IMG/VR virus record: IMGVR_UViG_3300017697_000015
Location: 1 to 64,000 of that record
Strand: one strand, 5' to 3'
DNA: 64,000 bases
From: an uncultured virus (IMG/VR IMGVR_UViG_3300017697_000015)
Lineage: Duplodnaviria > Heunggongvirae > Uroviricota > Caudoviricetes
The notes below the pieces were generated by a model. That model searched no databases, had not been told where the DNA came from, and saw nothing but the letters and a program-made list of their open reading frames with translations. Position 1 is the stretch's first letter. Every line of letters starts with the position of its first letter. Shown one piece after another: positions 13,134 through 24,404 of this stretch. The position numbers and the translations under genes are program-made.

Positions 13134-13162
13134 ATGATAACATAATCATACACTTATGTCAA
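13134..13162 (-). promoter_or_regulatory. Sigma70-type promoter
   Basis: TTGACA-17-TATCAT. Confidence 0.6.
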
Positions 13163-13729
13163 TTAAACAATTCCTCTTTTTGACAACCATTCTAATATTT
13201 CATTGTCATCAAAATCTGGCGATCTACGATGAGTTTCTGTAAGACTATCCCAATCTCGTAATGCTGGATGAGTTTTATCTGCCGAATTAAAGTAAGACCC
13301 ATGTCTCCAACCTTCAGATACTTTCTCACTAACCCATCTATTGTGATGCCATTTCTTCATATCAAACAATGCTTGATTTTTTACATCTTCATCAATGTGG
13401 ATTGAATTCTCAAAATTTCCCATTGCTGCTACATCATATTGACTAGATAATTCAATATCGAAGTCATCATCAAAATGATACTCCCATACATTAACAATAA
13501 ACAATGCCTCATCTGCGGTAATATCACGTGTTAACGGGATAACATATGTATGAGTCATATCGCAATCTGCGCAATGACCATATTCCATACCTATGTGGTC
13601 TTCACCTAATTGATACTTTAATACTGTTTCAACTGGTGAAAATTCTTTAACTGCACTGTACCAAGTTAATGCTTGCTCTTGCGTTAATGGCTCTGCTGTT
13701 TTTAATTGAATGTGATGTTGATAATACAT
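13163..13729 (-). CDS. RyR (ryanodine receptor Ryr) domain protein
   Basis: C-terminal 'HNRWVSEKVSEGWRHG...KTHPALRDWDSL'. Confidence 0.8.
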   Translation of the reverse strand: MYYQHHIQLKTAEPLTQEQALTWYSAVKEFSPVETVLKYQLGEDHIGMEYGHCADCDMTHTYVIPLTRDITADEALFIVNVWEYHFDDDFDIELSSQYDVAAMGNFENSIHIDEDVKNQALFDMKKWHHNRWVSEKVSEGWRHGSYFNSADKTHPALRDWDSLTETHRRSPDFDDNEILEWLSKRGIV

Positions 13730-13734
13730 AATAT

Positions 13735-14064
13735 CTATCCTATTTGTTCGTCTGATGAATAACGTGATACTGAACGAGGCGATGACTTCGTGGTCGCAAC
13801 CTGTACTGGTGTTGTTGTATGGTTGCTACCAGAGTTTACATATAGACCAAACCATGCTGCGCCTGCGCCTACTATAACTGATACCAATCCTGCTTGTGCC
13901 ATATTAGGCTCTTCTAATAACATAAACCACTGTGATACATCATATAGCAAATAAATGTAAACAGTTATGAATGCTCTTGGAAATAATCTTAATTTATCAA
14001 ACCAATATGGAAATGCTTCTAGCATACTTATTTTTCCATCTTCATTTAAATCTGTATCTGACAT
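13735..14064 (-). CDS. Two-TM membrane protein with N-terminal EF-hand-like loop
   Basis: 'DLNEDGKISMLE' then two hydrophobic helices; GGAG SD before ATG 14064. Confidence 0.65.
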   Translation of the reverse strand: MSDTDLNEDGKISMLEAFPYWFDKLRLFPRAFITVYIYLLYDVSQWFMLLEEPNMAQAGLVSVIVGAGAAWFGLYVNSGSNHTTTPVQVATTKSSPRSVSRYSSDEQIG

Positions 14065-14077
14065 ATTTACTTTCTCC

Positions 14078-14106
14078 ATTATATGATAGTATTTATACAA
14101 AGTCAA
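14078..14106 (-). promoter_or_regulatory. Overlapping sigma70 and late promoters
   Basis: TTGACT-17-TATAAT with TATAAATA (14090-14097) in the spacer. Confidence 0.65.
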
Positions 14107-14111
14107 GCCGT

Positions 14112-14150
14112 AAAAAAACCAAGCATGCAGGAAAACATACTCGGTTTTTT
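14112..14150 (-). terminator. Rho-independent terminator
   Basis: ACCGAGTATG...CATGCTTGGT stem (with G-U pairs) followed by a T run. Confidence 0.7.
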
Positions 14151-14180: not shown

Positions 14181-14486
14181 TTATGCTACTGTCATTGCAC
14201 CTGCGATTGTTAGTGCTAATGCCTGTAGTGCTGTTTGCATAGCGGCTGCATCAGCCCATGCGCTTCCTTCAACTGATACGGTGAATACCGTTCCACCTAC
14301 GCTGTGATCAGAAAGACCAATAATTGTACCACGCATTGCGATACTCTCTAAAATTGCTTCCATTTCTTCGCCTGGATTAACTTCTGCTGAAACATCTGCT
14401 GCTGCTGTGATTGTATAATCTGTGATTGTTGGTCCGTAGTTGAATTTACCGAATTCAATTACGTTTGCTGGGTTACGTGTTGCCAT
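14181..14486 (-). CDS. Small putative virion structural protein
   Basis: 101 aa, Ala/Thr-rich; own late promoter, AAGGAG SD and downstream terminator. Confidence 0.6.
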   Translation of the reverse strand: MATRNPANVIEFGKFNYGPTITDYTITAAADVSAEVNPGEEMEAILESIAMRGTIIGLSDHSVGGTVFTVSVEGSAWADAAAMQTALQALALTIAGAMTVA

Positions 14487-14554: not shown

Positions 14555-15034
14555 TTAGTATGCAAAATCTGCTACTGTCCAAGCCGATCCAGCCCAGCCA
14601 GCGTTTAATTCTGCTGCTAGTGAAACTGCTGTCCATGTACCATTGTTTTCAACTGCTACACGAAGATCAGGAGTAGCGACTGCACCCATAACAACAAGTG
14701 TTGCACGTCCTTCTACAATGTGAACTGCACGCTTTACTGCTGCTTTGTGTTCGTTAAGAGCAGTTAGTGTAACTGCTTCTGCTGCAACTGCTGCTGCTTC
14801 TGCAATTACTGCATTATCATATGCTGTTTCTAAACCAGCGTTGCCTGGATCTGCATCCCATGCTGCTTTCGCTGCGATAGTTGCTGCCTTTGCTGCTGCT
14901 GTATCTACTACATCTTGAGCATATGCGCCCGCTGCTGCTTCGTCCATGTCTGCACATGTTGTTGTAAAGTGAGCAAGTGAACCTGTTAGGAACTGGCTAT
15001 CTACTTCGTATACGTCATTTACTTTAGTTGTCAT
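14555..15034 (-). CDS. Putative virion structural protein
   Basis: 159 aa, Ala-rich; late promoter and AAGGAG SD. Confidence 0.6.
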   Translation of the reverse strand: MTTKVNDVYEVDSQFLTGSLAHFTTTCADMDEAAAGAYAQDVVDTAAAKAATIAAKAAWDADPGNAGLETAYDNAVIAEAAAVAAEAVTLTALNEHKAAVKRAVHIVEGRATLVVMGAVATPDLRVAVENNGTWTAVSLAAELNAGWAGSAWTVADFAY

Positions 15035-15103: not shown

Positions 15104-17467
15104 TTAACGTGTGACCTCTATCAGTTCTAAAAATACAACCCAATCAGTTGATGTTGCTGCTGGACCTTGTACTGATACTTTGATTCTATCATTTGCTACA
15201 TCTACTGATACAAATCCTGTACATCCTGAATCACTATCCTGTGTTACTTCATAACTGTTATTTCCAATGGCGACCATAGTTCCTGACATCTTGTGAACAA
15301 TACCAGTTACTTTAAAACTATCATGTGCTGTACCACTAGTAGCAACATAAGTAGCAGAAAACTTAGCAGTAGTATTATCTGCTAATGTAACGTAAGTGCT
15401 ATCACTAAATGATACCTCTGTTTCCACTGCATCAGTAGTCTCTATTGCAAACACTAAGTCACGTCTTTGTGCTGTTGTTGACACACCAGATACTACTTGC
15501 TTAATATCTGCTCTAAACTCAATATTATTAGTGAAATTTCTATCACCAATAACATCTGGCTCTGCATGTTTATTGTTAACATAACTCTCTGTTGCTAATC
15601 CCGCAACACTTGGTATATAAGGCTTATTAGCCAAATCTAAATAATTACCACTGAACAATACTGGTGCGTTAGATAAATCGCTGTAACTACCACTGAAGAC
15701 TGTTGGACTATTTACTAACGTGCTGTAATCTAATGCAAGTGTAGATAAGTCAATTTCATTTCCATTATTTAATGAAAGTACGTTCTGTGTTAATATAAAC
15801 GATAAGTTTGGTAAACTACTTGCTGGTATATTGGATAAGTCGTTATAATTTCCACTAAACAAGGTAGGTCGGTTAACAAGATCGTTGTAGTCAGCACTAA
15901 AGTGATCGCCACGTTCTACTAATTTTTGTGTTACCCAAGATTCACTTGCATAGCCTTCTAAGTCGATTACACCATCTGTTTGCAGTCCTACTAATTGTGC
16001 CGTAACATAATCTTTACTTGCCCAACTAACGTCTAAGTCTATATTTTCCCACATCGAACTTAATGCGTTATACATAAGTATATGGTTGGTTGATACACCA
16101 GATATTGCAACATCATTTAAATCAGATGTTGAACTGAGAGTTCCAAAATCAGCAACACTTATCGCATTTGTTACATACGCTTCTGATGCCAATCCTGTGA
16201 TACTTGGTATTGTTGGTGTATTAATTAAGTCGTTATAATTAGTTGTTCCACCACCGCCACCACTACCTAACAGACTTGTGGTGTCAGTTAAGTCACTTAC
16301 ATCTGTTGGTATTGTGGGCTTGTTAGTTAAGTTGTTGTAATTAGTTGTTCCACCACTACCTAACAGGCTTGTGGTGTCAGTTAAGTCACTTACGTCTGTT
16401 GGCAGTGATGCAATCGTTGCTAATCCTGCGATACTTGGAATAATTGGTTGATTAGTCAAGTCGGTATAACTACCACTAAAGATGGTAGGTGTATTAATCA
16501 AATCTGCAAATTCACCACTGAACAATGTGGGTGTATTAGTTAAATCTGCATAGTCACCGCTAAACAATGAAGTTGTTAATGCATAAACACTTAAATCAGT
16601 TATAGGCTGATAAGAAGCCAATGTATTCGTAAGATAACCAGTTGTAACTAAATCTACTGGTTTGTTAGTTAAATCATCATAACTACCACTGAATAACGCA
16701 GTAGTTAATGTATATGCAGCCAAAGAAGTCGCTAATGAAGATGTGGTTATGAATTCACTAAGATTACCAGCACTGACATTTGCAATTTGCTGATCAACGT
16801 ATGTAATGGTTGAATATTCAGTTAGATCGGTTACTAATAATGAATCGGTGTCTGTTAAATCATTTATATCAGTTGGCAAACTGCTTATCAATGCATGTGC
16901 TGATAAATCAGTTGCTGGATGTACAACTGCTGCTATTTGTTGATCTACGTATGCAATACTTGCTAATCCATCGATACTTGGAATGATTGGTTGACTCGTC
17001 AAATCAGCATAATCGCCACTGAATAAACTTGGTTTATTAATCAAATCAGTATAATCACCACTAAATACGTCAACTGCTGCTATTTGTTGATCTACGTATA
17101 CGCTGGTTGCATATGGTGTTAGTGATGGAGTGTTTAGTATGTTTGCATAATCTACTAGAGGAGGTACATATGCAGTGAATAATGCTTCTACTTCTACTGT
17201 TTTTATGTATGCTGCTAGATCAATAACACCACCCACAGATGCTACCGCATTGGCATCAATCGCTGCATTAACTTCCGCTAGTGAAAGAAAACCAAGGTCA
17301 TTGTTAAAACTACCAAGTGTTAATGCCGAGGTCGTTGATGGTACGTACATGTTCTTTAATGAATCATATACTAACATGTCACCAGTAGTTACAGGCATCG
17401 TAGTATCTACGATACCTTGCTGTGAACCATCAAGGGTCGCACGAGGTCTTACTGCGTTAATTGCCAT
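15104..17467 (-). CDS. Fibre-like structural protein with internal repeats
   Basis: 787 aa; many 'FSGxYxDLxNxP' and 'YAxxxYVD' repeats. Confidence 0.7.
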   Translation of the reverse strand: MAINAVRPRATLDGSQQGIVDTTMPVTTGDMLVYDSLKNMYVPSTTSALTLGSFNNDLGFLSLAEVNAAIDANAVASVGGVIDLAAYIKTVEVEALFTAYVPPLVDYANILNTPSLTPYATSVYVDQQIAAVDVFSGDYTDLINKPSLFSGDYADLTSQPIIPSIDGLASIAYVDQQIAAVVHPATDLSAHALISSLPTDINDLTDTDSLLVTDLTEYSTITYVDQQIANVSAGNLSEFITTSSLATSLAAYTLTTALFSGSYDDLTNKPVDLVTTGYLTNTLASYQPITDLSVYALTTSLFSGDYADLTNTPTLFSGEFADLINTPTIFSGSYTDLTNQPIIPSIAGLATIASLPTDVSDLTDTTSLLGSGGTTNYNNLTNKPTIPTDVSDLTDTTSLLGSGGGGGTTNYNDLINTPTIPSITGLASEAYVTNAISVADFGTLSSTSDLNDVAISGVSTNHILMYNALSSMWENIDLDVSWASKDYVTAQLVGLQTDGVIDLEGYASESWVTQKLVERGDHFSADYNDLVNRPTLFSGNYNDLSNIPASSLPNLSFILTQNVLSLNNGNEIDLSTLALDYSTLVNSPTVFSGSYSDLSNAPVLFSGNYLDLANKPYIPSVAGLATESYVNNKHAEPDVIGDRNFTNNIEFRADIKQVVSGVSTTAQRRDLVFAIETTDAVETEVSFSDSTYVTLADNTTAKFSATYVATSGTAHDSFKVTGIVHKMSGTMVAIGNNSYEVTQDSDSGCTGFVSVDVANDRIKVSVQGPAATSTDWVVFLELIEVTR
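16236..16402. repeat. Tandem intragenic duplication
   Basis: Two near-identical copies encoding PTDVSDLTDTTSLLGS(G)nTTNYN; Gly linker 2 vs 5. Confidence 0.85.
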
Positions 17468-23536: not shown

Positions 23537-24004
23537 CTAGTCTTTAAATATCTTTAGTACTTTATCAGTAATTCCTGGCTCTACAGGGACGGGAATAGTT
23601 ACATCACGATTATCATTGTGATTATCAATATTGATTTGAACACCTTCATAGTATGATTTGTATGCTGCTATAATAGATTGCTGCTGTGATAACAATTTTA
23701 ATATTTCAGAATTATTCAGACTTAGATTTTCATATCCAATATCAGTTAATGCAAATAATGCAATATTACTATTTACTTTTTGTAACTCTTTCATTACTTC
23801 ATCCATATTATCTATTGTGACTATAATAAAATCTACGTCACGCAATGCTAATACAGAAGTATCTGGCAATATTAAATCAGGCTTATCTATGGGCGCTGAT
23901 TTATATGTAACTACTTTTGGTACAGATGAACAACTACTTAGGAATATAGTTGGGATTAGCAATGTCATAACAACTGCTATTCGTTTGACTCTTTTTAACT
24001 GCAT
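23537..24004 (-). CDS. Outer-membrane lipoprotein o-spanin (Rz1-like)
   Basis: Signal peptide with lipobox LSSC; overlaps 3' end of i-spanin in another frame. Confidence 0.75.
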   Translation of the reverse strand: MQLKRVKRIAVVMTLLIPTIFLSSCSSVPKVVTYKSAPIDKPDLILPDTSVLALRDVDFIIVTIDNMDEVMKELQKVNSNIALFALTDIGYENLSLNNSEILKLLSQQQSIIAAYKSYYEGVQINIDNHNDNRDVTIPVPVEPGITDKVLKIFKD

Positions 24005-24404
24005 TTAATTCTTCCTCTGTTAGTGGTGAACCACTTACTATCTCAAAACATCTTAACACATCTTTAGTACCTTTGTCAACTATTTTTTCAACTAATACAG
24101 GCTTTGATTCTGCTAATGCACCTAGTTCATGTCTACTTAACTTAGACTGTAAATCTTTAACTCGTGAATTTGCTGCTTCAAATTTATTAGATACACGCAA
24201 ATACTCATCTTGCACTCTTACTAAATCTGCTTGTACTAATTTTAATGCGACATCTGTTGCTTGTTGTGCTTGTTCTGCTTGTGCTGCGTTGACTGCGAAT
24301 ATTTGAATTTGGTTTTGGGTGTATTTGTAATATTGCCAAGCACCATAACCAACTGCTCCAAAGATCACTGCTGCTATTAGATATAGTTTAATACGTGAAA
24401 ACAT
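23934..24404 (-). CDS. Inner-membrane i-spanin (Rz-like)
   Basis: N-terminal TM, coiled coil, C-terminal Cys residues. Confidence 0.75.
   Translation of the reverse strand: MFSRIKLYLIAAVIFGAVGYGAWQYYKYTQNQIQIFAVNAAQAEQAQQATDVALKLVQADLVRVQDEYLRVSNKFEAANSRVKDLQSKLSRHELGALAESKPVLVEKIVDKGTKDVLRCFEIVSGSPLTEEELNAVKKSQTNSSCYDIANPNYIPK

What the first reader, a model, noticed from the sequence alone, without database searches (positions are those of the whole stretch)
13163..14106. EF-hand/2TM membrane protein co-transcribed with a RyR-domain protein: candidate Ca2+-responsive membrane module
Seen: the 14064 protein begins with DLNEDGKISMLE (14017-14052), matching the 12-residue EF-hand loop pattern D-x-N-x-D-G-x-I-S-x-x-E, followed by two TM helices. 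Five bases downstream is a protein with a clear RyR repeat. The pair lies after a terminator and has overlapping sigma70 and late promoters. Established: RyR domains occur in eukaryotic Ca2+-release channels and in uncharacterised prokaryotic and phage proteins. Inference: a phage two-gene ion- or nucleotide-sensing pore or holin regulator (lysis timing or superinfection exclusion). Caveat: the loop has no preceding helix, and the adjacency may be chance.
Basis: partly seen in the sequence, partly recalled or inferred. Interest (0 to 1): 0.72.

Follow-up and report, generated by a model that had tools for sequence, protein, structure and literature searches.

The report
Holin-like protein beside phage nucleotide binder
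A large aquatic phage carries a small membrane protein, probably its cell-bursting 'holin', with a conserved calcium-type loop, next to a relative of newly described phage proteins that bind bacterial alarm nucleotides; the pairing is old and survives swaps of the membrane gene, but nothing shows that the two proteins touch.

Summary
In detail: Ca2+-type loop, two membrane helices, 5-nt gap, RyR domain, terminator and nested promoters are all present. The loop's ligand positions are near-invariant in the 120 closest homologs. The pair is conserved: 55 of 65 RyR-gene clusters have a small two-helix membrane gene directly upstream.

The loop and the pairing are independent, though. The slot is filled by five membrane-protein families, most without the loop. 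Loop-bearing proteins also occur in many phage loci with no RyR gene nearby. Two of these families replace each other in lysis cassettes and other slots, so the membrane protein is most likely a holin or holin partner (inferred).

The RyR protein is a ferredoxin-like + RyR fusion, widespread in Atu_ph07-like jumbo phages. It keeps the ligand residues of RyDEP, the phage cADPR glycosidase/sponge family (2026 preprint), but has proline at the catalytic aspartate, so it is probably a non-catalytic nucleotide binder. In Atu_ph07 both proteins of the equivalent pair appear in the published virion proteome.

Verdict: a real late two-gene unit and a new variant of known parts. A jointly gated Ca2+ pore is not supported. 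No earlier scan finding matched.

The parts
14110..14150 (-). Intrinsic terminator-like hairpin with U-tract, closing the upstream gene
   Evidence: Fold -21.2 kcal/mol vs shuffles -7.6 +/- 2.5, 0 of 300 as low; not listed by the strict scan
14078..14106 (-). sigma70-like TTGACT-17-TATAAT; function doubtful because its start would fall after the ribosome site
   Evidence: similar TTGAC...TAT arrangement upstream in several close relatives
14090..14097 (-). T4-type late promoter TATAAATA (motif meaning recalled)
   Evidence: TAAATA within 46 nt of the start in 34 of 43 relatives
13735..14064 (-). Gene for a 109-aa two-helix membrane protein ('family A', PHROG 10198), holin-like; alternative ATG at 14079
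14017..14052 (-). 12-residue Dx[DN]xDG Ca2+-type loop (residues 5-16), no entering helix
13921..13986 (-). Approximate first membrane segment (residues 27-48)
   Evidence: hydropathy; AF2 helix 18-49
13837..13896 (-). Approximate second membrane segment (residues 57-76), Gly/Ala-rich and the most conserved part of the family
13163..13729 (-). Gene for a 188-aa two-domain protein (ferredoxin-like + RyR repeat)
13442..13729 (-). N-terminal ferredoxin/ACT-like alpha-beta domain (residues 1-96); fold class only
   Evidence: AF2; VIA-align Z 6-8 to ribosomal-protein, ACT and PII-like domains, non-specific
13172..13390 (-). RyR (R12) repeat, residues ~114-186. H129, W132 and H154 match RyDEP H75, W78 and H100; P171 stands at RyDEP's catalytic D117
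13134..13162 (-). sigma70-like TTGACA-17-TATCAT right after the RyR stop; the next gene probably starts a new unit

Best explanation
A real two-gene late transcription unit whose two products do separate late jobs. Gene 1 is a holin or holin-associated inner-membrane hairpin (both ends probably cytoplasmic). In this lineage it carries a cytoplasmic Dx[DN]xDG loop that binds Ca2+ and tunes when the protein oligomerises, for example as Ca2+ leaks into a failing cell. Gene 2 is a conserved jumbo-phage ferredoxin-like + RyR protein that binds an adenine or ADP-ribose nucleotide (cADPR-type immune signal or a relative) without RyDEP-type hydrolysis. It is made late and probably packaged. The genes stay together because they share one late promoter with tight coupling. 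Shown: anatomy, conservation, gene swaps, lysis-cassette contexts, residue mapping. Inferred: holin activity, topology, Ca2+ binding, ligand, and packaging in this phage.
For: Families A and B occupy the same slots in several unrelated phage groups. A lysin or spanin gene lies in the fetched locus for 18 of 80 A loci and 31 of 80 B loci (identities). In Roseobacter phages, B directly follows a lysozyme (CRP-207), and A (CRP-901) and B (CRP-701) sit among peptidase and glycoside-hydrolase genes. The family spans large myophages, T5-like phages and 29-55 kb phages, which argues against a tail-specific part. The best fold match is a Vibrio phage protein named 'Holin' (43% identity, name untested). 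Family C has sub-threshold hits to GTA_holin_3TM (E 0.005-0.09). Loop ligand positions 1, 3, 5, 6, 9 are kept in 116-120 of 120 homologs while positions 2, 4, 10, 11 vary. The segment between the helices is acidic (3 D/E, no K/R) and basic residues precede helix 1. In the RyR family H129 is kept in 147, W132 in 144 and H154 in 116 of 148 sequences; position 171 is D in 68 and P in 24. Loop and pairing vary independently.
Against: No holin family model is hit at threshold by family A. CRP-701 has a separate annotated holin next to family B, so B may be a partner rather than the holin. The commonest context of family A is the T4-like baseplate block (29 of 80 loci). Family C proteins are reported in virion proteomes of Atu_ph07 and PA5oct, which is unusual for a holin. 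The membrane|RyR junction is more stable than the junction upstream (41 of 43 vs 26 of 43), which may mean more than shared timing. All nine proteins in the RyDEP paper's table, sponges included, keep the aspartate (counted by eye), so binding by an aspartate-less member is untested.
Confidence: 0.5

Rival explanations
1. Coupled lysis regulator: the RyR protein senses a nucleotide such as cADPR, ADPR or ATP and advances or delays holin triggering, with the Ca2+ loop as an optional second input.
For: A small two-helix gene lies directly upstream in 55 of 65 (90% identity) and 27 of 36 (70%) RyR clusters, against a background of 6 of 96 genes. This extends to Atu_ph07 and Phosso at about 25% identity. 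There are at least 14 label changes among 7 partner states on the RyR tree, with family C nested inside the A clade (quick tree). Four loci with no upstream membrane gene have a small hydrophobic gene directly downstream. Most gaps are -2 to +21 nt.
Against: The partners share no detectable sequence feature (A vs B hhalign probability 3%, A vs one C protein 0.3%), so one specific interface is hard to picture. In-place A/B swaps happen equally in slots with no RyR gene. 9 of 36 clusters lack an upstream membrane gene. SCTP-2 has its family-A gene about 84 kb from its RyR gene. PA5oct has family C with no RyR gene downstream. A short gap is simply a small target for insertions.
Confidence: 0.2
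2. Virion-delivered module: both proteins are packaged. The hairpin inserts in the host inner membrane at entry (ejection aid or plug) and the RyR protein soaks up immune nucleotides before phage genes are expressed.
For: Atu_ph07 gp284 (25.12 kDa, 7 peptides, 50% coverage) and gp285 (14.30 kDa, 3 peptides, 24%) are in the virion MS table, and these masses match the RyR and family-C proteins. PA5oct's family-C gene is annotated 'structural protein, ESI-MS/MS'. Families A and B sit between the hub-assembly gene and a long gene (probable tape measure) in T4-like marine phages. The pair ends a virion-protein cluster.
Against: The Atu_ph07 sample was PEG-purified and no CsCl step is mentioned, so membrane carry-over is possible. 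These data concern family C, not family A. Lysis-cassette positions in small phages are not explained.
Confidence: 0.2
3. The hairpin is a non-lytic membrane protein (assembly anchor, antiholin or superinfection-exclusion factor) and the adjacency is inherited gene order only.
For: Baseplate-block position in 29 of 80 family-A loci. Co-occurrence with another annotated holin in CRP-701. The RyR gene stays behind structural-type genes even when the membrane gene is missing.
Against: Repeated placement next to lysins and spanins in unrelated phages. The pair stays intact when upstream neighbours change.
Confidence: 0.1

Closest known systems
RyDEP and its sponge-type homologs (phage Pfam PF02026 proteins against Thoeris; PMC13232231)
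   Same: Same Pfam domain; H75, W78 and H100 equivalents kept with identical spacing (H129, W132, H154); phage-encoded.
   Different: D117 position is proline. The RyR repeat follows a ~96-residue ferredoxin-like domain. Late promoter, membrane-gene neighbour, conserved across a jumbo-phage clade rather than an insert in a NARP1 operon. None of the nine proteins in the paper's table comes from this subfamily (judged from their sequences and host genera).
Two-helix (class II) holins and pinholins; GTA_holin_3TM (PF11351)
   Same: Small helical hairpin with hydrophilic ends, late expression, relatives in lysin and spanin cassettes, high exchangeability.
   Different: No sequence match of family A to any holin model; here unlinked from the spanins (about 9.5 kb away); N-terminal Ca2+-type loop, for which my searches found no holin precedent.
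Dx[DN]xDG Ca2+-binding motif proteins, including EF-hands (PMC3123361, abstract)
   Same: Loop with canonical ligand spacing and an exiting helix.
   Different: Single loop, no entering helix, no paired hand; Pfam EF-hand not hit by the query and below threshold in homologs.
Animal ryanodine receptors
   Same: One R12-type repeat (best chain E 3e-17 with the family profile).
   Different: Only the peripheral nucleotide-binding repeat is shared; no pore, no channel EF-hand homology.
Agrobacterium phage Atu_ph07 gp285-gp284 and Sinorhizobium phage Phosso genes 208-209
   Same: Same arrangement: two-helix membrane gene, then ferredoxin-like + RyR gene, abutting or overlapping.
   Different: The membrane protein is family C without a loop; the RyR protein keeps the aspartate but has Ser at the H100 position.

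Membership tests
EF-hand | 12-residue loop with ligands at 1, 3, 5, 7, 9, 12 | tested here: met
   D1 120, N3 118, D5 120, G6 116, S/T9 120 of 120; E12 120 of 120 but used as alignment anchor
EF-hand | Helix-loop-helix with an entering helix, usually paired | tested here: not met
   Only 4-9 residues precede the loop; AF2 gives coil for 1-17; single loop
EF-hand | Pfam EF-hand model above cut-off | tested here: not met
   No hit for the query; EF-hand_5 at 12-19 bits in homologs and family B vs cut-off 25.9
Dx[DN]xDG Ca2+ motif | Ca2+ binding | not testable with these tools
   Needs ITC or a Tb3+/45Ca assay
Holin | Small protein with membrane helices and hydrophilic tail | tested here: met
Holin | Match to a curated holin family | tested here: not met
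   No Pfam or NCBIfam hit; PHROG 10198 is of unknown function; only an unverified 'Holin' name on a 43%-identical protein
Holin | Linkage to endolysin or spanin genes | tested here: inconclusive
   Not at this locus; yes in 18 of 80 family-A loci and in CRP-901
Holin | Timed membrane lesion that releases or activates endolysin | not testable with these tools
   Needs expression and complementation
RyDEP family (PF02026 phage proteins) | RyR/R12 domain above cut-off | tested here: met
   36.8 bits vs 27.4
RyDEP family (PF02026 phage proteins) | Ligand residues H75, W78, H100 | tested here: met
   H129, W132, H154 at the same spacing; mapped by motif offset, not by a computed alignment to RyDEP
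RyDEP glycosidase | Catalytic acid D117 | tested here: not met
   P171 in the query and its close clade; D in 68 of 148 wider homologs. An acidic residue follows at 172 in the query.
RyDEP family (PF02026 phage proteins) | Q54 and the two N-terminal helices that form the dimer and pocket | tested here: inconclusive
   Pfam match starts at profile position 26; the model has helices 114-138 and 175-184 after a disordered linker; no Q54 equivalent assigned
RyDEP sponge | Binds 2'/3'cADPR and rescues phage from Thoeris | not testable with these tools
   Needs EMSA and plaque assay
ACT domain | Ferredoxin-like fold with ligand-binding dimer | tested here: inconclusive
   Fold class matches at Z 6-8 along with many unrelated ferredoxin-like domains; no Pfam ACT hit

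The most novel reading that the evidence does not exclude
Jumbo phages couple lysis to host-immunity status. A conserved ferredoxin-like + RyR protein reads a Thoeris-type cADPR or ADPR signal and retimes whichever holin sits beside it, while marine holins of two families carry a Ca2+-binding loop as a second trigger. This would be a lysis clock gated by an immune nucleotide and by Ca2+.
Probability: 0.2. Interest if true: 0.85.

Novelty: new variant of a known kind. Interest (0 to 1): 0.57.

Why it matters
It names concrete holin candidates for phages whose lysis genes are unassigned. The Atu_ph07 paper says its lysis mechanism is unknown, and families A and B are annotated as hypothetical proteins in KVP40, Mosig, HTVC008M and Melnitz. 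If the loop works, these would be holins with a built-in Ca2+ site, for which my searches found no precedent. It also extends the new RyDEP story to an untested, widespread (at least 130 clusters at 50% identity), late and possibly virion-carried subfamily with a remodelled active site. All of this is directly testable with cultured phages and published assays.

Tried and rejected
Complex prediction (2 copies of the RyR protein + 1 membrane protein, with alignments) gave 'no answer', score 0.00 with an uncertain partner fold; it is no evidence either way.

Foldseek against PDB for the RyR protein gave no match at E <= 0.001; the N-domain has no specific relative.

The search for fused forms of family A (only the 8,000 best candidates scored) gave three hits, none a RyR fusion; they look like chimeras or frameshifts. 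Nine longer RyR-family proteins scanned show no membrane-family or lysin Pfam domain.

RNA-library contigs cover the upstream genes well and the pair sparsely. One 170-nt contig bridges the two genes and one runs across the terminator, but contigs cannot show a transcript.

No RyR gene was found in five records where family A sits near spanins (largest 268 kb, 75% complete), and no family C in five records lacking it upstream; neither search had a positive control. A viral-contig search with one family-C protein found nothing.

A PROSITE-style EF-hand pattern (recalled from memory) matched 24 of 121 sequences and not the query. A-B homology is unresolved (probability 3%, E 0.014). A core-only tree of family A needs 3 loop changes on 58 columns, which is too weak to date the gain.

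Literature searches listed no paper whose title or abstract start concerned these membrane families, a Ca2+-loop holin or this pair. Subscription papers are not covered. Earlier-finding look-ups returned nothing relevant.

Rejected: a miniature ryanodine-type channel (only the nucleotide repeat is shared); chance adjacency; a chance loop.

Full report
Setting. The window is the first 64 kb of a 73-kb virus record, 36% GC, with nearly all genes on the minus strand. The RyR protein's only full-length relatives among cultured phages are in Phosso, Atu_ph07 and (weaker) SCTP-2, so this is a fragment of a jumbo phage of that group (inference). A spanin pair lies about 9.5 kb away at 23537-24404.

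Observation. The loop is not chance: 1 of 200,000 shuffles and 0 of 1,268 unrelated ORFs match. In the 120 best homologs the ligand positions are D 120, N 118, D 120, G 116 and S/T 120 of 120, while positions 2, 4, 10 and 11 vary (E12 served as the anchor, and these homologs were selected by similarity to a loop-bearing query). There is no entering helix, so this is a Dx[DN]xDG motif rather than an EF-hand domain. Such motifs arise repeatedly in different folds (PMC3123361, abstract only). The sigma70 site is doubtful as the working promoter; the late motif is kept in 34 of 43 relatives.

The membrane protein. It belongs to PHROG 10198, with 2,691 homologs among 2,700 candidates and 353 phage records, 348 of them Vibrio phages. 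The family is defined by the hairpin, not the loop: only 8 of 77 recognised family-A ORFs in 80 viral loci carry the loop, and five of those eight lie in T4-like baseplate blocks with no RyR gene. Contexts of the 80 loci (overlapping counts): baseplate hub 29, lysin or spanin 18, carbamoyltransferase 16, terminase 8, DnaJ 7, RyR 4. A second family, B, has the same kind of loop in 75 of 80 loci (the five without may be mis-started ORFs, not checked). It turns up in the same slots: lysin or spanin 31, carbamoyltransferase 13, DnaJ 8, terminase 7, RyR 5, hub 1. A and B are at most distantly related (probability 3%). In small Roseobacter phages, B directly follows a lysozyme (CRP-207) or precedes an annotated holin and glycoside hydrolase (CRP-701), and A lies between a peptidase and a chitinase (CRP-901). 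Interchangeability across tail types plus lysis-cassette placement make 'holin or holin partner' the best reading. Against it: no curated holin model is hit, CRP-701 has another holin beside B, and the baseplate slot is the commonest.

The RyR protein. AF2 (pLDDT 81, pTM 0.50) gives a ferredoxin-like domain (1-96), a disordered linker and a RyR repeat. The family is broad: 271 representatives at E <= 1e-10, most of the 150 listed covering both domains. A 2026 preprint (PMC13232231; I read the abstract, parts 1-3 of 6 of the text, sections 18, 22 and 27, and both supplements) shows that phage PF02026 proteins hydrolyse or sequester the Thoeris signals 2'/3'cADPR, using H75, W78, H100 and D117; six of eight homologs bound without cleaving. 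By motif offset the query keeps H129, W132 and H154 but has P171 at D117. Across 148 aligned members H129 is kept in 147, W132 in 144 and H154 in 116; position 171 is D in 68 and P in 24. All nine proteins in the paper's table keep the aspartate (by eye). So RyDEP-type catalysis is unlikely here, nucleotide binding is likely, and the ligand is open.

Adjacency. I took 156 loci from five searches and three cultured phages; one (L312) had no RyR ORF and was dropped. Of 155, a small membrane gene ends within 170 nt upstream in 135 (A 109, B 10, C 9, D 6, E 1), none does in 12, and 8 are at contig edges. Dereplicated on the RyR protein this is 55 of 65 clusters at 90% identity and 27 of 36 at 70%, against 6 of 96 such genes in this contig. 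The count includes L202/L204, where a 54-aa ORF intervenes, and the D loci also have A one or two genes further up. At 70%, 11 clusters have a loop-bearing partner, 12 a loop-less one, 2 both and 11 could not be scored. On a quick RyR tree the partner label changes at least 14 times, with C nested among loop-bearing A, and B mixed with loop-less A. Four of the 'none' loci have a small hydrophobic gene just downstream. The membrane|RyR junction is intact in 41 of 43 clusters versus 26 of 43 for the upstream junction (rough test, some mis-starts, and a short gap is a small insertion target). Exceptions: SCTP-2 keeps its family-A gene about 84 kb away, and PA5oct has family C with no RyR gene after it. 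Because in-place swaps also occur in slots without RyR, they prove that the membrane families are interchangeable, not that they bind the RyR protein.

Virion evidence. In the Atu_ph07 paper (PMC6102473; passages, sections 29-30 and part 3 of 3 of the supplement) gp284 (25.12 kDa, 7 peptides, 50%) and gp285 (14.30 kDa, 3 peptides, 24%) are listed as virion proteins. Computed masses along the locus match gp284-gp290 in order and identify these two as the RyR and family-C proteins. The two genes that follow the pair are not in the listed table. The sample was PEG-purified with no CsCl step mentioned. PA5oct's family-C gene is annotated from MS as structural (I did not read that paper).

How it most likely works. 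A late promoter after a terminator drives both genes (motifs shown; use inferred). The hairpin accumulates in the inner membrane with its loop in the cytoplasm and acts in lysis, Ca2+ tuning the trigger in loop-bearing lineages (inferred). The RyR protein binds an ADPR-type nucleotide late in infection or arrives with the virion (inferred from RyDEP and Atu_ph07). I put this at 0.5. A coupled nucleotide-gated lysis regulator gets 0.2, a virion-delivered entry module 0.2, and a non-lytic anchor or antiholin with inherited order 0.1.

Novelty. Both parts belong to known kinds: holin-like hairpins and RyDEP-family domains. New, as far as searches of the open library reach: the ferredoxin-like + RyR jumbo-phage subfamily with the catalytic acid lost in one clade; its deep pairing with exchangeable membrane hairpins; and two holin-like families with a conserved Ca2+-type loop. 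Verdict: new variant of a known kind, interest 0.57.

Noticed in passing
L213-L292 (family B); Melnitz L326:4001-4330; HTVC008M hit H174: A second widespread phage two-helix family with a near-invariant Dx[DN]xDG loop (75 of 80 loci) and no annotated function; often beside lysins or spanins. A candidate holin or holin partner of SAR11, OM43 and Roseobacter phages.
   Followed up: partly
L087:5602-6639 (Atu_ph07 gp285, gp284): Both proteins are in the published virion proteome; gp285 is a candidate for this phage's unassigned holin.
   Followed up: partly
L293:1465-2037 (SCTP-2): A 190-aa protein made of two family-A hairpins in tandem, suggesting the hairpin works at least as a dimer.
   Followed up: no
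L090:5007-5237 (KVP40.0094): Family-A member about 3 kb downstream of the KVP40 spanins; a holin candidate for Schizotequatrovirus.
   Followed up: no
window 14181-14486 and 14555-15034: Two small Ala-rich related proteins with no Pfam or PHROG hit, conserved upstream of the pair and the best covered by RNA-library contigs in the stretch laid; possibly abundant virion proteins.
   Followed up: no
window 23537-24404: Rz/Rz1-like spanin pair next to J-domain and Clp-type ATPase genes (these two names from sequence, recalled). In related phages a family A or B gene lies between the spanins and the J-domain gene; here that slot is empty.
   Followed up: partly
L297:3154, L299:3139, L301:3178, L302:3165: A small hydrophobic protein (67-93 aa, no Pfam hit for the two scanned) directly downstream of the RyR gene in a clade lacking the upstream membrane gene.
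   Followed up: no
L120, L198, L199, L201, L203: A second 65-aa two-helix gene (family D) inserted between family A and the RyR gene, so these loci carry two small membrane proteins.
   Followed up: no
window 15104-17467: 787-aa fibre-like protein with many short repeated 'FSGxYxDL'-type motifs (PHROG 17509, unknown function).
   Followed up: no
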